Positions 36,421 to 45,677 of a DNA stretch of 64,000 nt are shown one piece after another. The DNA is from a virus. Both the position numbers and the translations under genes were made by a program. The stretch covers positions 1 through 64,000 of the IMG/VR virus record IMGVR_UViG_3300038299_000097. One strand, written 5' to 3'. Every line of letters begins with the position of its first letter. Positions within the stretch are counted from its first letter, which is position 1. The notes beneath the pieces are model-generated. The model searched no databases. It saw nothing but the letters and a program-made list of their open reading frames with translations, and was not told the DNA's origin.

Positions 36421-36449
36421 TTGACAGGGGTGTAATTATTATGTACAAT
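36421..36449 (+). promoter_or_regulatory. sigma70-type promoter for nrdAB
   Basis: TTGACA-N17-TACAAT. Confidence 0.7.
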
Positions 36450-36461
36450 ACTATGACTGAT

Positions 36462-38702
36462 ATGGAAAAAGAGATACGAATTGTGAAGAGGGACGGAGTT
36501 GAAGAGAACTTCAAAATAGACAAAATTACAAAAATACTGGAGTGGGCATGTGAAGGGATCGAGGATGTGGTACCAGACCATATATTATACAACGCTAAGT
36601 TAAATGTTTTTGACGGCATTAAATCTAGTGAGATACACCAAATCATTGTGGAGTCTGCTGCAAGCCTTATTGATAAAGAGGTTAATTACACCAAGGTTGC
36701 GGCAAGCCTTATGAATTATAAACTTCGTAAAGAGGTTTGGGGTGGTAAGAACCCACCAAAGCTTTATGATCTCCTCAAGAAGGGTATTAAGAAAGGCTTC
36801 TACGACCCAGAGCTTATCAAAATTTACACCAAGGCTCAGATCAATAAGCTTGATGAGTATATCAAGCATGATAGGGACAGTCGTTTTGAGTATGGTGGTC
36901 TAGTACAACTTACGGAGAAGTATTTAGTACAGAACCGTAACACCAAGGAGATCGTGGAAACGCCCCAATTTGCGTACATGATGGCATCGATGGCACTTTG
37001 TATCAAAGAAGCACCACGACAGCGTGTGAAGTGGGTGAAGGAGTTCTATGATGACTTCTCTAATCATAAGATCAACGTGTCCACACCAATTATGTCGGGT
37101 GCAAGAACAAGAGTCCGTAGCTATTCATCATGTTGTATTATTGACGTAGCTGATACTAAGCATTCCATCACATCATCTGTCACATCATCTGTGTTGGTTA
37201 CTGCTGATAAGTATGGTATTGGACTCAACTATTCTAAGATCCGTTCTATCAATGAACCAATCCGTGGCGGGGAAGCTTCACACGGTGGTGTAATCCCTTG
37301 GTTGAAACTCAGTCAAGCAGCGATTCAAGCATCACAGCAAGGACCTAGACGTGGTGCGGGTACGTGTACGTTCTTCGCAATGCATCCAGAGATCGAAACT
37401 ATCCTACAATTAAAGGATACACTTCTTCCAGAGGACAGAAAGGTCGAGCACTTGGATTACTCCATTGCTATGACAAACCTATTCTACCACAGACTACTAG
37501 AAGGTGGTGACATTACGTTGTGTTCATATAACCAAGCACCAGATGTTTACAAGGCATATGGTACACCATTTTTCAACGATATCTATGAAAAGTGGGAGCT
37601 GGAGAATCCAGATGCACCCAAGATTACTACCGAAAGGTTCTTCTCATTACTCGCTAAACAACGTAGTGAGACTGCTAGAATTTACATCTACAACATTGAC
37701 GAGAACTTCACCAACTCTGCTTGGTTGCCTCGTGTTGAGGCATATAATTTATGTCAAGAAGTGGGTGGACCTACTAAACCCGAACGGTTCACAGAAGACC
37801 CAGAAGCTGAAACGGTTGTGTGTGTCCTCAGTGCCCCCAATGCATGTAATATAAAGGATGATGCGGATCACAAGAGAGTACTTTACAACATTGTTCGTAT
37901 CCTTGATAACGTCATCGATGTACAGGAGTACACGGTGGATGCTTGTAAGAGGTATGCAGAGAACAAACGCTCACTTGGTGTTGGTATTAGTAACCTAACA
38001 GGTTGGCTCGCACTCCAAGGTCTTAACCACTCATCTATTGAGACACCACAGGTGGTTTCAGACTTCTTCGAGAAACAACAATACTACCTTATTGAAGCAT
38101 CTATTGAACTAGCTAAAGAGCGTGGTAAGTGTAAGGATTTCAACCAGTCTAAATACTCTAAAGGTATTATGCCAGTGGATCGTTACAATAAGAATGTTCA
38201 TGAGTTCCTTGATGAAGAACACAAGCTCGACTGGGACAGGATCAGAGCAGCAGTATTGAAGTATGGTATGAGACATTGTACTCTATCATCATTCATGCCA
38301 TGTGAAGCTAGTTCGGTTGTACAGTCATCTACTAACGGGTTTGAACCAATTCGTGACCTAGTGGTGTACAAAGAATCCAAGACAGCAATGACTATTGTAG
38401 TAGCACCAAATGTGAAGACACATGGTCAACACTATGTTAGAGCTTATGACGCACCTAACAACGATGGTTACATCAAAGTAGTAGCAGTACTGACTAAGTG
38501 GTCTGACATGGGTGTTAGTGGTAATCTATACTACAACCCTGCATACTTCGAAGGTGGTATCATCCCACAAGATTACATCATCCAAGATATCCTCACAGCA
38601 ACCCGATACGGTTGGAGAACTTTCTACTACCATAACACCGATGATGGTGATAAGGAAGTAAGCGAAGATAGTGCTTGCGCCTCTGGTGCTTGCTCACTAT
38701 AA
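36462..38702 (+). CDS. nrdA: class Ia ribonucleotide reductase alpha subunit with ATP cone (exact start uncertain)
   Basis: IVKRDG ATP cone, ETPQ, STPIM, SCC, NLCQE, TFYY and C-terminal CASGAC. Confidence 0.95.
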   Translation: MEKEIRIVKRDGVEENFKIDKITKILEWACEGIEDVVPDHILYNAKLNVFDGIKSSEIHQIIVESAASLIDKEVNYTKVAASLMNYKLRKEVWGGKNPPKLYDLLKKGIKKGFYDPELIKIYTKAQINKLDEYIKHDRDSRFEYGGLVQLTEKYLVQNRNTKEIVETPQFAYMMASMALCIKEAPRQRVKWVKEFYDDFSNHKINVSTPIMSGARTRVRSYSSCCIIDVADTKHSITSSVTSSVLVTADKYGIGLNYSKIRSINEPIRGGEASHGGVIPWLKLSQAAIQASQQGPRRGAGTCTFFAMHPEIETILQLKDTLLPEDRKVEHLDYSIAMTNLFYHRLLEGGDITLCSYNQAPDVYKAYGTPFFNDIYEKWELENPDAPKITTERFFSLLAKQRSETARIYIYNIDENFTNSAWLPRVEAYNLCQEVGGPTKPERFTEDPEAETVVCVLSAPNACNIKDDADHKRVLYNIVRILDNVIDVQEYTVDACKRYAENKRSLGVGISNLTGWLALQGLNHSSIETPQVVSDFFEKQQYYLIEASIELAKERGKCKDFNQSKYSKGIMPVDRYNKNVHEFLDEEHKLDWDRIRAAVLKYGMRHCTLSSFMPCEASSVVQSSTNGFEPIRDLVVYKESKTAMTIVVAPNVKTHGQHYVRAYDAPNNDGYIKVVAVLTKWSDMGVSGNLYYNPAYFEGGIIPQDYIIQDILTATRYGWRTFYYHNTDDGDKEVSEDSACASGACSL

Positions 38703-38825: not shown

Positions 38826-39899
38826 ATGAGTAACACAGTTTTAAATCTAGAGAAGCGTGATGCATTGGCTGAACCAATGTTTTTCGGCACACCCCTTGGA
38901 ATCCAACGTTTCGACGTGGTTAAATATCCAGAGTTTGCAAAGTCCGTAGAGACACAATTTTCCAACATGTGGAACCCAAAGGAGATAGGTATGGCATCAG
39001 ACCTAGCTTGTTATGAATCACTCTCAGATACCGAGAGATTCATCTTCGAGACAAATCTTCGATTCCAGACAGCGGGTGATTCACTACTTTCCAGAAGTAT
39101 TGAAGCAATCAAACAACATGTCACAAACTCAGAACTTGAGTACGCAATGAACTGGTGGGGTCTTATGGAGAATATTCACTCCGAGAGTTACACCCACGTA
39201 CTACAAGGGATCACTAAAGATCCTACACCATTCTTCGATTCTATTCTAGAAGACACAGAACTGGTTGAACGTATGCAGACCATCATCAAACCCTTCAATG
39301 ACCTTCTTGAAGATAAGGAAGGTGACTGTAAGCGCACGAAATTATTCAAAGCGGTGTTGGCACTACAAATTGCTGAAGGTGTTCTATTCTACACATCATT
39401 TGCATGTAGTTTCTTCTTCGCTAAGAACGGTAAGATGACCCAGAACGGTAAGATCATTTCTATGATTAAGCGTGATGAGTCAGAGCACCAATCAATCACA
39501 CAGAACATACTCAAGAGAATGCGCGAAGATCCGTCCGAGGGGTTCCAAGATATCGTAAAGGCTCATGAACAATTCGTTTATGATTCATACGAGGTTGCAC
39601 TTGATGGTGAAAAGAAGTGGGGTGATTACTTATTCTCTAAGGGTGAGATGGTCGGACTTACTAAAGCATCTCTCCATGGCTATGCTGAGTGGAATGTTCG
39701 TGGTCGTTTGAGATCCAATGGTTATGATCCATCAAAGTTTGCTTACCCACTAGCAGAACAGAATCCTATTTCATGGTTGGTTAAATTCCTTGACTCAAGT
39801 CGTGTACAGGCGGCACCTCAAGAGATCGAGAAGACTGATTATAAGAAGATGGGAACTGTAAACAATCTTGGTAGTTCGCTTAAGACATTAAAATTCTAA
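38826..39899 (+). CDS. nrdB: class Ia ribonucleotide reductase beta subunit
   Basis: W.P.EI, DS, ENIHSESY, EG..FY.SFA, RDE..H and APQE.E..Y. Confidence 0.95.
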   Translation: MSNTVLNLEKRDALAEPMFFGTPLGIQRFDVVKYPEFAKSVETQFSNMWNPKEIGMASDLACYESLSDTERFIFETNLRFQTAGDSLLSRSIEAIKQHVTNSELEYAMNWWGLMENIHSESYTHVLQGITKDPTPFFDSILEDTELVERMQTIIKPFNDLLEDKEGDCKRTKLFKAVLALQIAEGVLFYTSFACSFFFAKNGKMTQNGKIISMIKRDESEHQSITQNILKRMREDPSEGFQDIVKAHEQFVYDSYEVALDGEKKWGDYLFSKGEMVGLTKASLHGYAEWNVRGRLRSNGYDPSKFAYPLAEQNPISWLVKFLDSSRVQAAPQEIEKTDYKKMGTVNNLGSSLKTLKF

Positions 39900-39917
39900 G
39901 TTTATTACCAACTTAGC

Positions 39918-39946
39918 TTGACACTGATTTAAAACTGTGCTAATCT
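39918..39946 (+). promoter_or_regulatory. promoter P1 of the ncRNA array
   Basis: TTGACA-N17-TAATCT with extended -10 TG; RNA unit 1 begins 7 nt downstream at G39953. Confidence 0.8.
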
Positions 39947-39952
39947 AAGTAT

Positions 39953-40040
39953 GTCACCAGCTACAGGAAGGATATATATAATTCAGTCGGGATCACCCTT
40001 CGGGGCATCCCCGATCCAACAACCTTCCTAATACGGTGAC
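39953..40040 (+). ncRNA. array RNA unit 1 (shared stem/internal loop plus UUCG hairpin domain)
   Basis: GTCACC/GGTGAC stem, AGCTAC/AATAC internal loop, AGGAAGG/CCTTCCT stem, apical GTCGGGATCACCCTTCGGGGCATCCCCGAT. Confidence 0.85.
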
Positions 40041-40195
40041 TATAAATAAAACGCCCAGCCACGGCTGGGTTATATTATAAAACTGAAGTCGAAAGACATT
40101 GGGGGTTCGAGTCCCTCACTTCCCACTCGACGGGAAGTTGGCGAAATTGGTAGACGCATCAGATCAACTCATCCAATTCGGGCGTTTTATTTATA
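40041..40195 (+). ncRNA. array RNA unit 2: YrlA-like RNA with a circularly permuted tRNA-Leu-like domain
   Basis: 16-bp perfect outer stem; AGCCAC/AATTC loop; variable arm GTCGAAAGAC; T arm GGGGGTTCGAGTCCCTC; ACTTCCC-A-loop-GGGAAGT; D arm GCGAAATTGGTAGACGC. Confidence 0.9.
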
Positions 40196-40200
40196 TTCAG

Positions 40201-40287
40201 ATCAAATGAAAACAGTTCCTCAGCTAAGTGTATGTTATTTATATTCAAAACACACATACCCAATTCGGGGAGTTGTTTTCATTTGAT
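40201..40287 (+). ncRNA. array RNA unit 3 (shared module plus AU/AC-rich loop)
   Basis: 21-bp outer stem with 3 G-U pairs; AGCTAA/AATTC loop; GTATGT/ACATAC stem. Confidence 0.85.
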
Positions 40288-40289
40288 TT

Positions 40290-40337
40290 AAGAGAACGTC
40301 TATCTCTGGGACGGTACTCCGTTACCAGTAGCGTCTT
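40290..40337 (+). ncRNA. additional bulged hairpin within the array, lacking the shared motif
   Basis: AAGA..ACG.CTA..CTGG-GACGG-TACT-CCGTT-A-CCAG-TAGCGTCTT. Confidence 0.45.
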
Positions 40338-40364
40338 GTTATAAAGATAATGTCAAAACAGTTG

Positions 40365-40392
40365 TTGACAATATGATCAAACCTGTTAAAGT
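40365..40392 (+). promoter_or_regulatory. promoter P2 of the ncRNA array / TerD-fusion operon
   Basis: TTGACA-N16-TAAAGT with extended -10 TG; unit 4 begins 7 nt downstream at G40399, the same geometry as P1. Confidence 0.75.
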
Positions 40393-40398
40393 AATTGT

Positions 40399-40461
40399 GT
40401 CACCAGCTAAGAGAGTGTTATTTAAATGAAATCAAAACACACACACTCTCAATACGGTGGC
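40399..40461 (+). ncRNA. array RNA unit 4 (shared module plus AU/AC-rich loop)
   Basis: GTCACC/GGTGGC stem, AGCTAA/AATAC loop, GAGAGTGT/ACACTCTC stem. Confidence 0.85.
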
Positions 40462-40607
40462 TATAAATATGGCATTCAGCTAGGTATAAGTTAAACTATT
40501 AAACAATTGGTCACAGGTTCAAATCCTGTCATCTCAGCCTTATGGGATGTAGCTCAGTCTGGTAGAGCAGTTGATACAACTTGTACGATTCGGGTGCCAT
40601 ATTTATA
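40462..40607 (+). ncRNA. array RNA unit 5: YrlA-like RNA with a circularly permuted tRNA-Asn-like domain
   Basis: 16-bp outer stem (2 G-U); AGCTAG/GATTC loop; T arm ACAGGTTCAAATCCTGT; CATCTCA-G-loop-TGGGATG; D arm GCTCAGTCTGGTAGAGC. Confidence 0.9.
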
Positions 40608-40640
40608 TCCTTCAACATAAACAACAAACACCACTAACTA

Positions 40641-42683
40641 ATGTTACTATCCGAAAACGCAGTATATGTTCAGCCTTCTAAGTCAGCTCGTAGTAAGAGC
40701 AACTCAGTTAAAATTGCTAACCTGCTCTCTATTGAGTTAATGAACTACGGTATTCAGCTAAGTGCCGACCTTCGTAATTCAATTTCCAAGCTTAATGCCA
40801 AGGACGCTCAGTCAGTAGCTACTGAGATCCTTAAGGCTAACACCATGGGTAGTCTAACACCACCACTTTTCCGTAATTGGGAACAGCGTAATGCGTTCAC
40901 CACTGGGGAGATCATTGTGCAACTCTTTGCATACGTATTCCAAATCTCTGGTAATGATCTTTATGATCCAGAGTTCCTCAACAACCTTGACCGTGATTTT
41001 GATTACACCAAGACGCTCAACCTTGCTACCAAGGATGACGCAACCAAGAAGTTCAGCACTCTTGCAACCACACGAGTGCCACTCGACATGGCTTCTATGC
41101 AACTTGTAGTACAACTTGCTAAGACACTTCCTTTGGACAACTGTGAACGTATCTTCTCTGATGAAGTTCGTGTGGCTGTTATCGACGGTGATGGCGGTTG
41201 TGACTTTAAATCTTTCAAAGGGCGACCAACTGACGTTCTTAAACTCTTCGCACTCCGCAAGAATCAAAACACTCTCGACATGAAACTACCTGTCGATGTC
41301 AAATTTGACGCCCTCTCATGGTCTGAGAGAATCAAAACACTTGAGTTCCTTGAGTCCTTCGGTTTCGAATATCTATCTGAAGAGATGGGTAAGAACCGTG
41401 GAGCTTGGTCTAAGTTCTTCAACCACATTCATGCTTTCGGGCAGAAGGGTTGGAGTAATAGATTCCCTAATTTCATGATGGCATCAATGGCATCCGTTCA
41501 ACGTAATATTAGTCTAGTAGATAAGAAGACCGTCAAAGGTTTCTCAGAACTAATACTTAGTGGTGGCGTTGAAGTGGTTTCTAATAAGTTTGTTTACCGT
41601 ACATTCGCTTCCCGTGTAGAATCAACACTCAAAAACTACAAGACATTTGATCAAGTGGTTGCAGTGTTTGGTAACAAGGGTTCTTATGTTCTCAACAACT
41701 TGACCTCTATTTCTAACAAGATCAAGAAGGCAGACTCTCGTAAGTTTGTGGAGCTTGTTCGTGGGTTTCTTACCAATGCACCAGTCAAAACTCTGTTCTC
41801 TATTCTATCTATCGATGTGAATGCAGAGTGGCGTGTGATTGATGTTAAGGGTAGCACCAAGATCGAAACTGCCAACTATAGTTCTGTCATTGGTGACATC
41901 CAAGGTGACATCAAGATCGCCCTACATGAGCGTTTCGGGTTCGAGGGTAAGGTAACAGTCGATAAAGAGCTTGCGACACTAGGTGTGCCATTCTTGACCA
42001 CTAGTTCACAACTTAGCCGTGGTACTCGTTACTCATTCACTGATGACGAATATCTCTACTTCTTCATGAAGTGGATTCAGCCAGAGAATCGGACTACAGA
42101 TCTTGACCATAGCCTTCTTTACTTCGATGCGGATTGGAATTCACAACACGTTTCATTCTCTCGTCAAGTTGATACATTCATCCGACATGGTGGTGACATC
42201 ACCAGTGCGCCAGCCCCACATGGTGCCAGTGAATACTCACGAGTTGATCTCAAACTAATCCCGAAAGCTGTTAAGTACATCGTACCATCAGTGTTCGTAT
42301 ATAGAGGTACTAAACTTTCATTGAATGATGAGGCATATGCAGGATTCTACTTCGGTGATAACGATTCGTTCTCCCTTAAACAGGAACACACACGTTACGA
42401 CTTCACTCAGCCATCAGGGTTTAACGTACCATTCATCATCGACGTTGAGAATCGCGAGATTGTAGTGGTGGATTATAACCAAGAGACCTCTGGTAATGTT
42501 GTTCAGTCTGCTGTATGTGATATCAAGAACCTCATCAGTGCTACGAATTCTAAGAACTACATCACCGTTGAGGATCTAGCAGAGATTCTATCTGGTGATA
42601 AGGATACCACATCCTTAAATATCTCAAACGATAGTGGCGATGGTATAGTAGCACCACAGGATTTATTCTCACTGTTCGCATAA
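40641..42683 (+). CDS. large alpha-helical protein with a C-terminal TerD-like domain (candidate Ro/TROVE-like RNA-binding protein)
   Basis: C-terminal W......TDLDHS..F, H.GDITSAP..GASEY..VDL TerD motifs preceded by LSRGTR; helical N-terminal ~430 aa. The Ro-like role is inferred from the adjacent RNAs. Confidence 0.7.
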   Translation: MLLSENAVYVQPSKSARSKSNSVKIANLLSIELMNYGIQLSADLRNSISKLNAKDAQSVATEILKANTMGSLTPPLFRNWEQRNAFTTGEIIVQLFAYVFQISGNDLYDPEFLNNLDRDFDYTKTLNLATKDDATKKFSTLATTRVPLDMASMQLVVQLAKTLPLDNCERIFSDEVRVAVIDGDGGCDFKSFKGRPTDVLKLFALRKNQNTLDMKLPVDVKFDALSWSERIKTLEFLESFGFEYLSEEMGKNRGAWSKFFNHIHAFGQKGWSNRFPNFMMASMASVQRNISLVDKKTVKGFSELILSGGVEVVSNKFVYRTFASRVESTLKNYKTFDQVVAVFGNKGSYVLNNLTSISNKIKKADSRKFVELVRGFLTNAPVKTLFSILSIDVNAEWRVIDVKGSTKIETANYSSVIGDIQGDIKIALHERFGFEGKVTVDKELATLGVPFLTTSSQLSRGTRYSFTDDEYLYFFMKWIQPENRTTDLDHSLLYFDADWNSQHVSFSRQVDTFIRHGGDITSAPAPHGASEYSRVDLKLIPKAVKYIVPSVFVYRGTKLSLNDEAYAGFYFGDNDSFSLKQEHTRYDFTQPSGFNVPFIIDVENREIVVVDYNQETSGNVVQSAVCDIKNLISATNSKNYITVEDLAEILSGDKDTTSLNISNDSGDGIVAPQDLFSLFA

Positions 42684-42732: not shown

Positions 42733-42772
42733 ATTGACACAAACCGCCAAATATAGTAAGGTCTCTCCACAG

Positions 42773-44695
42773 ATGAATATACCCGTAGAACCACAGAACA
42801 CAGTGAAGTCCAATAATTTCGAGACTTCAGAGATGACCATCGAACTTGGTCAGATTAATATGGTAGCCCAGATTGTTAGGGATAAGATTTATACTGATAA
42901 ACCCATGGCACCAGTTCGAGAGTATGGGTGCAATGCACTTGACGAACACCTAAAGCATAATGTTGGAAGGATGGTCGAGTTCACTATTGATGATATTAAA
43001 AGTACATTCAGCGTGAGGGACTTCGGTCTAGGACTTAGTAATGATTTTGTAATGAAAGTCTACGGCATGATAGGTAAGACCACTAAGAAGGATGACGACA
43101 CCCAGACTGGTGGGTATGGTCTAGGCTCTAAGTCTGGACATGCTTACGGTGATCAGTTCACTATCACGTCATACTACGGCGGTAAGAAGACTGTATACAT
43201 TGCCATCCTTGAAGGAGATGGTGTACCAATTGGTGTGATCAACAAGGTTAGTGTAACAGACACTGATGAACCAACTGGTGTTGAGATCTCACTACCTATT
43301 AAAGATGGTGAACTACCCTCATTCAAAGATCGCATGTCAACATTCCTTAAGGGTGTTCGTACTGACGTTGTGTACAATGGTGAGGTTCATAATGAAAGAC
43401 ACCCAACGGTTGAAGGCCATAGCCACATCCACCACAGTGCTTCCCATGTTAGAATGGGTGATGTTATCTATAAGATTGATTTCCCTACACAGTTCACCAA
43501 GAACAATATTCCTATCACAATCGATGCACCGTTAACCTCTCTAACATTCCCCCCAAGCCGTGAGTCTATCGATAACACACCACACAACCAAAAGGTTATA
43601 GATGACATTATCAATGAGTACATGGCTATTGAGGATCTAAAATTTAAAGAGTTGCTTAAGACTGAGAAGGTGAACACACTACTCAAACTTGCCACATCAA
43701 CCCAGACATACAGGTATCTTGTAACTCTCAATAACTATGTTAAAGACGGTCTTACTATATCAACCAAGACTCAACTTGGTTATGTGATGGCAAATAATGA
43801 TATACTTATGAGCTATATGGATCAGCGTGATGGTTATGAAGTTTTCAAACATAATCGTGATCAGAACGCTAAACCTAAGAAGATGGAACTTAGTACGATT
43901 GAGATGACTAACTTCTTCATATCTAAAAGGCGGTGTGGTGTACCACTATCTAACGAGATCGTTAAGCACTATGATAAAGACGATCTTAAATATGACAAAT
44001 ACTGTACAGAGTTCTCGGTTATATATGAACACAAAGGTAACCAAGAATTCATCACAGAGCTTCGCAAGGTTCTAGAGTGTCGTGATCTTGATGAAGACGT
44101 GTACATTAAAACCAATGTTACCAGAGCCGCAACCAAAGCTCGTAGAGGTAAGGTAGAGTTCAGTAAACTTAATAAAGTAGAGTATGGTAGAATTAGAAAT
44201 AATGATACCGACATCAATTCTCTTGTTAAGTCATACCCATTATTCTACTCCGACTGGCAGGATTATTCCAGACGTACAAAACAACCTTACTATAAACTCA
44301 CCAAGGTACAATTTGAATACCTAAAATCTAAGGGTTATAAGATGGTTCATATGACTAATATGAATGATACACTAAAACAGATGGTGTATGATAAGTCTAC
44401 CAAGCTAGAACGTTTCCAGTATGCTAAGTATAGGTTCATAGAAAAGTCTGATGTTCGTAAACATTTTGCCAAGGGTGTTATGTTTAAGCAACCTAGATAT
44501 AAGAAATCATTTGATGCATTCAAAGATATTGATTATGATGAGTCTGTTGAGTATAAGAAGTTTATTGACATTCTAGGTAGAGTGAGTGATAATATATTAC
44601 CTTCTTGGAAAGTTCGAGCAATGAAAAGGCTCGCAGGTTTCAACGGTGCTACAGAACACAAAGAGGCAATGGATATAATTTTACACGCAAAATAA
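42773..44695 (+). CDS. rIIA: rIIA-like protein (GHKL ATPase N-terminus)
   Basis: IYTDK..APVRE..CNA.D.H, VRDFG.GL, G.TTK, GG.GLGSK; ATG 42773 preferred over the TTG inside the -35 box. Confidence 0.88.
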   Translation: MNIPVEPQNTVKSNNFETSEMTIELGQINMVAQIVRDKIYTDKPMAPVREYGCNALDEHLKHNVGRMVEFTIDDIKSTFSVRDFGLGLSNDFVMKVYGMIGKTTKKDDDTQTGGYGLGSKSGHAYGDQFTITSYYGGKKTVYIAILEGDGVPIGVINKVSVTDTDEPTGVEISLPIKDGELPSFKDRMSTFLKGVRTDVVYNGEVHNERHPTVEGHSHIHHSASHVRMGDVIYKIDFPTQFTKNNIPITIDAPLTSLTFPPSRESIDNTPHNQKVIDDIINEYMAIEDLKFKELLKTEKVNTLLKLATSTQTYRYLVTLNNYVKDGLTISTKTQLGYVMANNDILMSYMDQRDGYEVFKHNRDQNAKPKKMELSTIEMTNFFISKRRCGVPLSNEIVKHYDKDDLKYDKYCTEFSVIYEHKGNQEFITELRKVLECRDLDEDVYIKTNVTRAATKARRGKVEFSKLNKVEYGRIRNNDTDINSLVKSYPLFYSDWQDYSRRTKQPYYKLTKVQFEYLKSKGYKMVHMTNMNDTLKQMVYDKSTKLERFQYAKYRFIEKSDVRKHFAKGVMFKQPRYKKSFDAFKDIDYDESVEYKKFIDILGRVSDNILPSWKVRAMKRLAGFNGATEHKEAMDIILHAK

Positions 44696-44696
44696 T

Positions 44697-45677
44697 ATGA
44701 AGAAAACAGAATACGCTTATAGCAATGGTGGCGTAACAATAATCAATATGCTAACAGGGGAACCCACCTCGTTCGAGTCGGGGTCTAAGGACTATGATTT
44801 TGTATTGGAGAACATCGATGACGATGATCAACTATATAGAATCGTTACAGAAGGTATCGAACAATTCTTTGAAAAGGAGTTGGTCAACATCTTTGATGAA
44901 CACAAGGACTTTATCATGGTGGCTGGTCACAAAGTGAAGAACCACCTTGTATCAACTTGGATCGATATCCGACACAAGGGTGGTGATACCCAAGCGTATG
45001 AACTATTCCTTGAGAACCTAGCTCGTAATCCATCAGCCACATCCATCAAGGAATTGGTAGACTTCCTATCACACGGGGGTTTCCCTATCACTGAAGATGG
45101 TTGCTTCCTAGCATACAAGGGAGTCCAAACAAATGGTTGGAGTGTTAAAGGTAACTTGGACACCGTGGTGTTAGAGGGTGATACCAACTCAAAGGGTCAG
45201 ATCAACAACGTACTAGGGGGTACCATCCGTATCAAACGAGCATCATGTGATGATGACCGTAAGAAGACATGTAGTTTTGGTGTCCACGTTGGTACTTTTA
45301 ACTATGCATCTAACTGGGGTGATCGACTTGTACTGGTCAAGGTCAATCCAGAAGACGTGGTGTCTGTACCAGTTGATGGTTATGAGAAGCTCCGTTGTTG
45401 TGCCTATAGTGTCGAGAAGCTTTATGGTAAGGCTGAGGGTGAATTAGAACAATCAACTGCTAACATCGTTGAAGGTGAGATTGTCACCGCTGACACTGCT
45501 GTAACGGTTGCTGATATGGTCAAACTGGCGATTTATGAATACAACTGCTTCAAGGTGTGTGACGTAGAAATGTGGGTCCGTTGTGAGTATAGTATAGCAC
45601 TCAACGAGGTTCAAATCATCAATGCTGTTAAGGAATTGGGTATGCGCGTTGTCGGCGTTGACACGATTCTGGTCTAG
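44697..45677 (+). CDS. rIIB: rIIB-like protein
   Basis: F.ENL..NPS, PITEDG.FLAYKGV, CS.G.HVG...YA, V.V.P.DVVSVP.D..KLRCC.Y. Confidence 0.9.
   Translation: MKKTEYAYSNGGVTIINMLTGEPTSFESGSKDYDFVLENIDDDDQLYRIVTEGIEQFFEKELVNIFDEHKDFIMVAGHKVKNHLVSTWIDIRHKGGDTQAYELFLENLARNPSATSIKELVDFLSHGGFPITEDGCFLAYKGVQTNGWSVKGNLDTVVLEGDTNSKGQINNVLGGTIRIKRASCDDDRKKTCSFGVHVGTFNYASNWGDRLVLVKVNPEDVVSVPVDGYEKLRCCAYSVEKLYGKAEGELEQSTANIVEGEIVTADTAVTVADMVKLAIYEYNCFKVCDVEMWVRCEYSIALNEVQIINAVKELGMRVVGVDTILV

What the first reader, a model, noticed from the sequence alone, without database searches (positions are those of the whole stretch)
40083..40162. Circularly permuted tRNA-Leu body with the acceptor stem closed by a loop and no intact anticodon loop
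Seen in sequence: the order is anticodon-stem 3' strand (CTGA), long variable arm (GTCGAAAGAC), T arm (GGGGG-TTCGAGT-CCCTC), acceptor 3' strand ACTTCCC plus discriminator A, 6-nt linker CTCGAC, acceptor 5' strand GGGAAGT, D arm (GCG-AAATTGGTAGA-CGC), then TCAG. These are tRNA-Leu hallmarks. A class II (long variable arm) tRNA mimic is notable. Established: LeuRS generally reads A73, the D loop and overall shape rather than the anticodon. Inference: if the linker is cut (RNase P / RNase Z) and CCA is added, this RNA could be leucylated while lacking the target of anticodon nucleases.
Basis: partly seen in the sequence, partly recalled or inferred. Interest (0 to 1): 0.85.

Follow-up and report, generated by a model that had tools for sequence, protein, structure and literature searches.

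The report
tRNA mimic on phage Y-like RNA
The flagged stretch is a real inside-out, Leu-type tRNA body with its amino-acid end capped by a loop, but it is most likely not a tRNA gene: it is the cargo of one of five small RNAs that share a conserved stem "handle" in front of a helical-plus-TerD protein gene, a phage RNA-protein module built on the plan of Ro60 and its tRNA-mimicking Y RNA (YrlA).

Summary
Observation confirmed. Window 40083-40162 holds a complete class II tRNA body in the order AC-stem 3' strand, variable arm, T arm, acceptor 3' strand, A73, 6-nt loop, acceptor 5' strand, D arm, AC-stem 5' strand. ARAGORN and Rfam call nothing in the native order. The re-joined body is called a tRNA with any 7-nt loop, against 0 of 600 shuffles.

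It is not alone. A second, Asn-type body lies at 40504-40573. Both sit in the apical loop of a stem "handle" (P1 / C-AGCYA / P2 / UAUU ... RAUUC-G / P1') that also forms three plain hairpins in the same 740-nt gap.

Topology equals YrlA, yet Rfam scores are 41 and 14 bits against a threshold of 69, and the CGAA motif is absent. It works like a YrlA/Ro60 particle; membership is not shown.

Earlier AI notes of this scan describe the same handle-plus-TerD module on other phage DNA. RNase P cutting, CCA addition and leucylation remain untested.

The parts
39918..39946 (+). Promoter-like site A: TTGACA, then TGC-TAATCT (extended -10), 6 nt before unit M1
   Evidence: Read from sequence. The consensus scan did not list it because the -10 hexamer is weak. 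Relatives have TTGACT-N17-TATAAT before single units.
39953..40040 (+). Unit M1: handle hairpin (P1 GUCACC/GGUGAC, AGCUA, P2, AUAUAU, AAUAC) with a small extra hairpin in its apical loop
   Evidence: R1 covariance model 45.5 bits, E 9e-9. MFE fold z -3.6.
40041..40195 (+). Unit M2: 16-bp closing stem (40041-40056 with 40180-40195), AGCCAC 40057-40062, P2 (40063-40071 with 40166-40174), linker with UAUU 40072-40082, tRNA-like cargo, AAUUC 40175-40179
   Evidence: Coordinates. The MFE fold gives the 16-bp stem, T arm and capped acceptor stem, z -4.0. Handle features were aligned by hand; the model R1 cannot bridge the roughly 80-nt insert.
40083..40162 (+). The finding: permuted class II (Leu-type) tRNA body with a 7-bp acceptor stem capped by CUCGAC
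   Evidence: Weak YrlA match, 14.1 bits at 40099-40157.
40199..40289 (+). Unit M3: handle hairpin with a 22-bp closing stem (core 40216-40272)
   Evidence: R1 51.8 bits. MFE z -6.3.
40365..40392 (+). Promoter-like site B: TTGACA, 16 nt, TAAAGT with TG before it, 6 nt before unit M4
   Evidence: Promoter scan, 10 of 12 matches.
40399..40461 (+). Unit M4: handle hairpin (P1 GUCACC/GGUGGC)
   Evidence: R1 49.8 bits. MFE z -4.7.
40462..40607 (+). Unit M5: 16-bp closing stem (40462-40477 with 40592-40607), AGCUA, P2 (40484-40492 with 40578-40586), linker AAACUAUUAAA 40493-40503, Asn-type permuted tRNA body 40504-40573 (T arm 40513-40529, acceptor 40530-40536 with 40543-40549, G73 40537, loop CCUUA), GAUUC 40587-40591
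   Evidence: Rfam YrlA RF02553 41.2 bits, E 1.5e-7, below the threshold of 69. MFE z -4.7. The re-permuted body is called a tRNA. Nearest real tRNA is an Asn with U1-A72 and G73.
40641..42683 (+). Gene for a 680-aa protein with a helical N-terminal part (about 130-460) and a C-terminal TerD fold (about 465-631): the presumed protein partner of the RNAs

Best explanation
The element is the tRNA-like 'cargo' domain of a small non-coding RNA that works like the bacterial and phage Y RNA YrlA.

Shown:
- The RNA's two ends pair into a closing stem that carries a conserved internal loop (C-AGCYA opposite RAUUC-G), a second stem and a UAUU motif. I call this the handle.
- The apical loop of the handle carries a complete L-shaped tRNA body whose acceptor stem is capped by a loop and whose anticodon stem runs into the handle.
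- Five such units (three plain hairpins, one Leu-type body, one Asn-type body) lie between two sigma-70-like promoter sites and a gene for a helical-plus-TerD protein.
- The handle always travels with that gene.

Inferred:
- The protein binds the handle, as Ro60 binds the Y RNA stem.
- The tRNA body docks the particle onto a host factor that recognises tRNA shape (RNase P, CCA-adding enzyme, modification enzymes, a synthetase, an exoribonuclease or a tRNA-directed nuclease).
- The 16-22-bp closing stems of the internal units are processing sites that release the units from polycistronic transcripts.
- With 7-bp acceptor stems and A73 or G73, the caps may be opened by RNase P, as in M. smegmatis YrlA.
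For: 1. The tRNA body is real and permuted.
2. A second body of another isotype sits in the same position of the same scaffold 420 nt downstream.
3. The scaffold is a bona fide RNA family. In a 34-sequence seed, 12 of 13 pairs show compensatory changes. On 58 model hits, 96% of cells are paired and the covariation score is 0.966, against 0.244 for shuffles and 0.09-0.16 for slid partners. The unpaired nucleotides C-AGCU, UA and CG are invariant.
4. All significant model hits (60 at E <= 1, of which 58 at E <= 1e-5) lie on the + strand of the related loci, and 59 of the 60 lie upstream of a homologue of the 680-aa gene. In four whole virus records (350 kb), all 12 hits form one cluster per record next to that gene and none lies elsewhere.
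5. The order V, T arm, capped acceptor, D arm, with the AC stem continuing into a stem made by the RNA's ends, is exactly that of YrlA (PMC4201824; bioRxiv 10.1101/312249). The Rfam YrlA model matches M5 at E 1.5e-7.
7. Relatives carry other inserts in the same apical loop, including a T-arm-like hairpin (L194:1752-1818), so the loop is a cargo site.
8. A phage Ro60 with two Y-like RNAs encoded upstream of its gene, binding and attenuating host PNPase, is published (PMC12135203).
Against: - Both units score below the Rfam YrlA threshold (41.2 and 14.1 bits against 69). Weak hits of that model also turn up in 13 of 14 control genomes.
- The Ro60-binding motif GNCGAAN0-1G / CGAA is absent from the 5' strands.
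- There is no TROVE match in this 74.8-kb fragment or in three related fragments.
- hhalign of the protein family against mycobacteriophage Bxz1 Ro shows nothing.
- No binding, expression or processing data could be obtained.
- tRNA-bearing units were found only in this phage among about 20 related loci, so conservation of the cargo itself is unproven.
- The model R1 does not detect M2 or M5; their membership in the handle family rests on hand alignment, and M2 has AGCC where the family is invariant AGCU.
Confidence: 0.6

Rival explanations
1. One reading: the cap is opened by RNase P and a 3' trimming enzyme, CCA is added, and LeuRS charges the two-piece RNA. This gives an aminoacylated tRNA-Leu mimic that anticodon nucleases cannot cut. 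It can hold together with the best explanation.
For: 7-bp acceptor stem, A73, intact T arm and elbow nucleotides. M. smegmatis YrlA with a 7-bp stem is cut by RNase P in vitro and carries CCA in vivo (PMC4201824). M5 even encodes CC after G73. LeuRS does not read the anticodon (my own knowledge).
Against: Nothing here tests cleavage or charging. Salmonella YrlA and D. radiodurans Yrn1 are not cleaved (PMC4201824). An anticodon-less RNA tied to a long handle has no evident use on the ribosome. The Asn-type twin would need its anticodon for AsnRS (my own knowledge), so charging cannot be the common purpose of both units.
Confidence: 0.12
2. The tRNA bodies act on their own as decoys or sponges for tRNA-directed host defence nucleases or other tRNA-binding host proteins. 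The handle only stabilises them and needs no dedicated protein.
For: Two different isotypes are displayed. Single-stranded, anticodon-loop-like heptamers (UUAUAAA, CUAUUAA) lie beside the AC stems. The promoter-like sites look strong.
Against: The strict linkage of the handle to one gene argues for a protein partner, as do the invariant unpaired handle nucleotides. Most family members carry no tRNA part. The heptamers overlap the family-invariant UA(UU) motif, so they need not be anticodon remnants.
Confidence: 0.12
3. Neutral relic: pieces of a dimeric tRNA transcript (3' half of one tRNA, spacer, 5' half of the next) were recombined into two handle units and have no function of their own.
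For: Only this phage among about 20 relatives has them. The M5 cap (G-CC-UUA) resembles the spacer between tRNA genes at the end of this record (A-CC-UUUAU). The BLAST hit of M5 spans a tRNA-Met/tRNA-Asn junction in Pseudomonas phages.
Against: Both acceptor stems are fully paired (7 bp, one G.U), which would not be so for halves of two different tRNAs. All elbow nucleotides are intact in both. The two bodies occupy the same position in two parallel promoter-hairpin-cargo cassettes.
Confidence: 0.08
4. A true circularly permuted tRNA gene: the precursor's ends are cut and ligated to close an anticodon loop, and the cap is removed, giving a decoding tRNA.
For: 3' half before 5' half, as in the permuted tRNA genes of Cyanidioschyzon merolae (my own knowledge). 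Joining 40163 to 40075 gives a 7-nt loop and an ARAGORN-acceptable tRNA.
Against: - The leader and trailer form the family handle, not a bulge-helix-bulge motif.
- The resulting anticodons would be AUA and AUU with A34, and for the Leu-type body the wrong amino acid.
- The 'loop' overlaps the handle's invariant UAUU.
- 55 further copies of the family have the same handle without any tRNA.
- No RtcB, Rnl1 or Rnl2 family ligase is found in the fragment, though two thirds of the genome is missing.
Confidence: 0.04

Closest known systems
YrlA-type Y RNAs of bacteria and mycobacteriophages (Rfam RF02553; Chen et al. 2014, PMC4201824; Wang et al. 2018, bioRxiv 10.1101/312249)
   Same: - A stem made by the 5' and 3' ends, plus a tRNA-like domain in the order V, T arm, loop-capped acceptor stem, D arm.
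- No anticodon loop.
- A conserved UA-containing motif (YUAY there, UAUU here) 5' of the body.
- Accompanied by plain hairpin RNAs (YrlB-like).
- Encoded just upstream of, and on the same strand as, the presumed protein partner.
- A 7-bp acceptor stem, as in the RNase P-cleaved M. smegmatis YrlA.
   Different: - Scores lie below the family threshold.
- No GNCGAAN0-1G/CGAA motif; the conserved handle nucleotides are C-AGCYA, UAUU and RAUUC-G.
- The T and D stems are not the near-invariant YrlA ones (M2 not at all).
- The bodies still look like particular tRNAs (Leu type, Asn type).
- The neighbouring protein has no TROVE sequence signature and carries TerD instead of vWA.
Ro60/Rsr ribonucleoproteins, including Thermus phage phiLo Ro60 with Yrl1/Yrl2 (PMC12135203) and D. 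radiodurans Rsr-Y RNA-PNPase (RYPER)
   Same: - A helical ring-like protein encoded next to several small stem-bulge-stem RNAs.
- The system is carried by a phage.
   Different: - No sequence or profile similarity to TROVE.
- The C-terminal domain is a TerD beta-sandwich, not vWA.
- Distant bacterial relatives carry a Prok-RING_4 finger.
- Binding to RNA or to PNPase is untested.
Circularly permuted tRNA genes (Cyanidioschyzon merolae and some algae and archaea; my own knowledge)
   Same: The 3' half is encoded before the 5' half, and the acceptor ends are joined by a short linker that RNase P and RNase Z would remove.
   Different: - Those precursors are circularised at a bulge-helix-bulge motif by the splicing endonuclease and a ligase, and yield decoding tRNAs.
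- Here there is no such motif and no usable anticodon.
- The flanks are a conserved handle shared with RNAs that carry no tRNA part.
Type III toxin-antitoxin loci (ToxIN: tandem RNA repeats upstream of the protein they bind; my own knowledge)
   Same: A tandem array of small RNAs directly upstream of one protein gene, in some relatives with a terminator-like end before the gene.
   Different: ToxI repeats are near-identical 36-nt units cut by a small endoribonuclease. Here the units differ in sequence but covary in structure, some have their own promoters, and the protein is a 680-aa helical-plus-TerD protein.

Membership tests
YrlA (Rfam RF02553) | tRNA-like domain in the order V, T arm, loop-capped acceptor stem, D arm, with the AC stem continuing into a stem formed by the RNA's ends | tested here: met
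   Sequence reading and coordinates. MFE folds. Topology as described in PMC4201824 and 10.1101/312249.
YrlA (Rfam RF02553) | Score at or above the curated gathering threshold (69 bits) | tested here: not met
   M5 scores 41.2 bits and M2 scores 14.1 bits.
YrlA (Rfam RF02553) | GNCGAAN0-1G (CGAA) Ro60-binding motif near the 5' end | tested here: not met
   The 5' strands 40041-40071 and 40462-40492 contain no CGAA. The family-invariant nucleotides are CAGCU, UA and CG.
YrlA (Rfam RF02553) | Encoded within about 4 kb of, and on the same strand as, a TROVE-domain Ro60 gene | tested here: not met
   No PF05731 match in G000 (74.8 kb, about 33% complete) or in three related records. The adjacent gene has no Pfam family. 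The genome is incomplete, so a distant TROVE gene cannot be excluded.
YrlA (Rfam RF02553) | Near-invariant T-stem and D-stem sequences of YrlA RNAs | tested here: not met
   The alignment to the model consensus shows that M5 shares the D arm but not the GCGGG/CCCGC T stem. M2 has a 3-bp GCG/CGC D stem and a GGGGG/CCCUC T stem.
Canonical tRNA gene | Contiguous cloverleaf with a closed 7-nt anticodon loop and free acceptor ends | tested here: not met
   ARAGORN finds 0 genes in the window and in the native units. Position 31 is joined to the handle, not to position 32.
Canonical tRNA gene | Conserved elbow and core nucleotides (U8, A14, G18G19, 15:48 pair, G53-C61, T-loop UUC) | tested here: met
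   Read in both bodies. The re-permuted bodies are accepted by ARAGORN with any loop, against 0 of 600 shuffles.
Circularly permuted tRNA genes (C. merolae type) | Leader and trailer form a bulge-helix-bulge motif that is cut and ligated to close the anticodon loop | tested here: not met
   The flanks form P2 plus an internal loop of 5-6 nt opposite 5 nt plus P1, that is, the handle. No 3-4-3 bulge-helix-bulge is present.
Ro60 / TROVE proteins (for the 680-aa neighbour) | TROVE (HEAT-repeat ring) domain detectable by sequence | tested here: not met
   Pfam finds none. hhalign against Bxz1 Ro gives probability 0.2%. A profile search against PDB sequences finds only TerD. Distant relatives carry Prok-RING_4 and TerD, never TROVE.
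Ro60 / TROVE proteins (for the 680-aa neighbour) | Ro60-like ring fold | tested here: inconclusive
Ro60 / TROVE proteins (for the 680-aa neighbour) | C-terminal vWA domain | tested here: not met
Handle RNA family defined here (model R1) | P1, C-AGCYA, P2, UA(UU), RAUUC-G, P1', upstream of the helical-TerD gene | tested here: met
   M1, M3 and M4 score 45-52 bits. M2 and M5 were aligned by hand with all elements present (M2 has AGCC instead of AGCU). The model itself misses them because of the roughly 70-80-nt inserts.

The most novel reading that the evidence does not exclude
A previously undescribed class of phage ribonucleoprotein. A helical-ring-plus-TerD protein with no detectable sequence kinship to Ro60 binds a universal RNA handle whose apical loop is a plug-in site for interchangeable cargoes, here freshly captured tRNA-Leu and tRNA-Asn bodies. 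The cargoes aim the particle at isotype-specific tRNA-binding host factors (synthetases, modification enzymes or tRNA-cleaving defence nucleases), possibly after RNase P opening and CCA addition. This would make it a programmable tRNA-decoy or targeting system used in phage-host conflict.
Probability: 0.2. Interest if true: 0.85.

Novelty: new variant of a known kind. Interest (0 to 1): 0.62.

Why it matters
**Known kind.** tRNA-mimicking Y RNAs (YrlA) are known, but their effector is not. They have so far been tied to recognisable Ro60/TROVE proteins and a CGAA motif.

**What differs here.** The same plan appears with a different handle, a partner protein that has a TerD domain and no TROVE signature, and tRNA bodies so little diverged that their parent isotypes can still be read. 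One is Leu type and class II; the other is Asn type with U1-A72 and G73.

**Origin of YrlA.** This locus is about as direct an illustration as sequence can give of the proposal that YrlA-type mimics arise from dimeric tRNA transcripts (discussed in bioRxiv 10.1101/312249).

**A route to the unknown effector.** Two different cargoes sit on one handle in one phage. Pull-downs with M2, M5 and the plain hairpins should separate handle-binding factors from tRNA-shape-binding factors.

**Annotation.** tRNA finders and Rfam miss these RNAs entirely.

Tried and rejected
- **The look-up of encoding contigs was closed.** I could not fetch the 231-kb contig that holds this exact protein, or the contig of the 84%-identical relative P0002. 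Conservation of M2 and M5 in close relatives is therefore unknown.
- No expression or end-mapping data were obtained, and read laying was not used.
- **IMG/VR scan for handle plus T loop plus UUCGG.** It gave 67 stretches, about the number expected by chance. None has the P1 pairing or a permuted body.
- **IMG/VR scan for the plain hairpin motif.** Relatives were found through the protein instead.
- **Single-protein scan of IMG/VR.** No relative was confirmed.
- **tblastn against 50,697 deposited phage genomes.** Only partial, distant matches (TerD part). No cultured phage in that collection has this gene in full.
- **BLASTN of the gap against deposited phages.** Only tRNA-conserved blocks matched.
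- **R1 with filters off.** It does not span M2 or M5.
- **RtcB, Rnl1 and Rnl2 families.** None in G000, and no RtcB in three related records. All are fragments, and the Rnl1 search had no positive control.
- **TATAAATA and TATTTATA.** I first read these as T4-type late promoters. They are the two strands of the 16-bp closing stems of M2 and M5, though a double role is not excluded.
- **CsrA-type GGA sponge.** Rejected, because GGA is not kept in this window's units.
- **Type III toxin-antitoxin array.** Rejected; see Closest known systems.
- **Anticodon remnants.** Reading UUAUAAA and CUAUUAA as anticodon remnants is not needed for M2, where UAUU follows P2 as in the whole family. It remains possible for M5, which is one base away from the Asn loop.

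Full report
**Setting.** The window is part of a 74.8-kb fragment, about one third, of an uncultured large phage. The finding lies in a 740-nt gap (39900-40640). Upstream are nrdA (36441-38702) and nrdB (38826-39899). Downstream are a 680-aa ORF (40641-42683), then rIIA (42734-44695) and rIIB (44697-45677).

**The observation.**
- AC-stem 3' strand CUGA, 40083-40086.
- A variable arm with a GUC/GAC stem and GAAA loop, 40087-40100.
- T arm, 40101-40117.
- ACUUCCC plus A73, 40118-40125.
- Cap CUCGAC, 40126-40131.
- GGGAAGU, 40132-40138.
- D arm, 40141-40157.
- UCAG, 40159-40162.

ARAGORN and Rfam at curated thresholds see nothing in the native order. Joining the halves gives an 86-nt class II tRNA for ARAGORN. 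The call is independent of which 7-nt loop is inserted, and none of 600 shuffled constructs is called. The printed isotype therefore means nothing. By body, the nearest of 252 real tRNAs in the fetched loci are class II: a Ser-GCT with identical D and T arms, then several Leu. A73, A15:U48 and the D loop fit bacterial tRNA-Leu (my own knowledge).

**It is one of two, and both are inserts.**
- A second permuted body lies at 40504-40573. It has U1-A72, G73, a 7-bp acceptor stem with one G.U, and a cap CCUUA. Its nearest real tRNA is an Asn.
- Each body sits inside the same scaffold: a closing stem P1, an internal loop with C-AGCYA on the 5' side and RAUUC-G on the 3' side, a second stem P2, and a UAUU motif just after the 5' strand of P2.
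- Three plain hairpins in the gap (M1 39953-40040, M3 40199-40289, M4 40399-40461) have the same scaffold.
- The layout is two parallel cassettes: promoter-like site, short hairpin unit, tRNA-bearing unit with a 16-bp closing stem. A third hairpin with a 22-bp stem follows the first cassette.
- TATAAATA and TATTTATA, which look like T4 late promoters, are the two strands of those 16-bp stems.

**The scaffold is a real RNA family tied to the next gene.**
- The 680-aa protein has 49 homologues at 33-84% identity. Loci encoding them were fetched from IMG/VR and from metagenomes.
- Nearly all carry 2-6 copies of the hairpin directly upstream, on the same strand.
- A 34-sequence seed gives 13 consensus pairs, 12 of them with compensatory changes, plus invariant unpaired CAGCU, UA and CG.
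- The covariance model R1 finds 60 matches at E <= 1, all on the gene's strand. All but the weakest, which lies inside the gene in L201, are upstream of it.
- On the 58 matches with E <= 1e-5, 96% of cells are paired. The covariation score is 0.966, against 0.244 for shuffles and 0.09-0.16 for slid partners.
- In four whole virus records (350 kb) the 12 hits form a single cluster per record beside the gene, and none lies elsewhere.
- The apical loop takes inserts in relatives too: extra hairpins in L003, and a T-arm-like GUGG-UUCAAAU-CCAC in L194.
- tRNA-bearing units were found only in this phage. R1 itself cannot bridge the inserts of M2 and M5, so their membership rests on hand alignment.

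**What it resembles.**
- An E-value scan of Rfam matched M5 to YrlA, the tRNA-mimicking bacterial Y RNA, at 41.2 bits (E 1.5e-7; threshold 69). M2 scores 14 bits.
- YrlA RNAs have exactly this topology: a stem from the two ends and a tRNA-like domain with a capped acceptor stem, often with a variable-arm stem-loop. A conserved YUAY lies 5' of the body, and plain hairpin Y RNAs are encoded alongside.
- The M. smegmatis YrlA, whose acceptor stem has 7 bp, is cut by RNase P and receives CCA (PMC4201824; structure in bioRxiv 10.1101/312249).
- Phage examples are known: mycobacteriophages, and Thermus phage phiLo Ro60 with Yrl1/Yrl2, which attenuates host PNPase (PMC12135203).
- The defining YrlA features beyond topology are not met. 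There is no CGAA motif, and the scores are sub-threshold. The T and D stems are not the YrlA ones, and no TROVE gene appears in this record or three related ones.

**The neighbouring protein.**
- Pfam and PHROGs find nothing.
- Against 48,161 representative PDB chains, Ro60 structures rank 3, 6 and 10 for the whole model.
- Foldseek gives only weak generic HEAT/ARM matches, and profile comparison with a mycobacteriophage Ro shows nothing.
- A profile search of 1.84 billion representatives finds 350 relatives. The distant ones are 700-870-aa proteins with a Prok-RING_4 finger and/or TerD, never TROVE. The Atlas places the helical part with mainly actinobacterial TerD and RING proteins at TM 0.70-0.76.
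- So the protein is Ro60-like in predicted shape at best. Kinship is not shown, and TerD replaces vWA.

**Interpretation.**
- The best-supported reading is a Y-RNA-like particle. The handle would be the protein-binding part and the tRNA body the effector-binding part, as in YrlA.
- Shown: the permuted tRNA bodies, the handle family with its covariation, and its linkage to the gene.
- Inferred: protein binding, processing at the long stems, RNase P opening, and any target.
- The heptamers UUAUAAA and CUAUUAA beside the AC stems look like anticodon loops with A34. They overlap the family-invariant UAUU, so I do not count them as anticodons. For M5, a remnant of the Asn loop (one base different) remains possible.
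- A true permuted tRNA gene is unlikely. There is no bulge-helix-bulge, no usable anticodon, and the same flanks occur in the family's other 55 copies, which carry no tRNA body.

**Relation to earlier notes of this scan.** After reaching this reading I consulted the notes. Follow-up agents have described the same handle-plus-TerD-protein module, with tRNA cargoes, on other phage DNA. These are AI notes, not evidence. My own tests agree with them, except that I found no RNA-repair ligase in these fragments.

**Limits.**
- No expression data could be obtained.
- The closest relatives could not be fetched.
- The genome is only one third complete.
- Structural similarity among helical repeat proteins is weak evidence.

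Noticed in passing
L223:1300-1700 (- strand), i.e. G000 about 73.9-74.3 kb, outside the window: A tRNA cluster on the opposite strand behind a TTGACA...TATAAT promoter. ARAGORN calls only tRNA-Lys(UUU). Two adjacent sequences have full acceptor stems and CCA but non-canonical T loops (UGAGACU, UGCAAAU) and are not called. The inter-tRNA spacer (A-CC-UUUAU) resembles the cap of unit M5.
   Followed up: partly
window 40290-40360: An imperfect hairpin lies between unit M3 and promoter-like site B. The fold is weak (z -1.7) and its role is unknown. It might end the first cassette's transcript, but it has no U run.
   Followed up: partly
L194:1752-1818; L003:1945-2023 and 2085-2178: Handle units of related phages carry other cargoes in the apical loop: a T-arm-like hairpin (GUGG-UUCAAAU-CCAC), a CGGG-UUUGAACU-CCCG hairpin, and a long 15-bp hairpin.
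   Followed up: partly
window 40641-42683 (protein residues 69-101): The only long low-confidence stretch of the protein model lies just N-terminal to the position (about residue 115-160 of the relatives) where distant bacterial relatives (MXAN_6230/SCO0854-type) carry a Prok-RING_4 zinc finger. The phage proteins lack it.
   Followed up: partly
L201:1480-1600, L205, L207:1556-1700: In more distant relatives of the 680-aa gene, ordinary tRNA genes (for example Lys-UUU) lie directly upstream of the gene or next to a handle unit. Handle RNAs and tRNA genes are therefore neighbours, which would ease capture of tRNA pieces.
   Followed up: no
L002:3454-3475, L004:3456-3475, L003:2428-2440: In relatives the last handle unit before the gene ends in a U run, like an intrinsic terminator. 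In this window M5 has none, so read-through into the gene seems likelier here.
   Followed up: no
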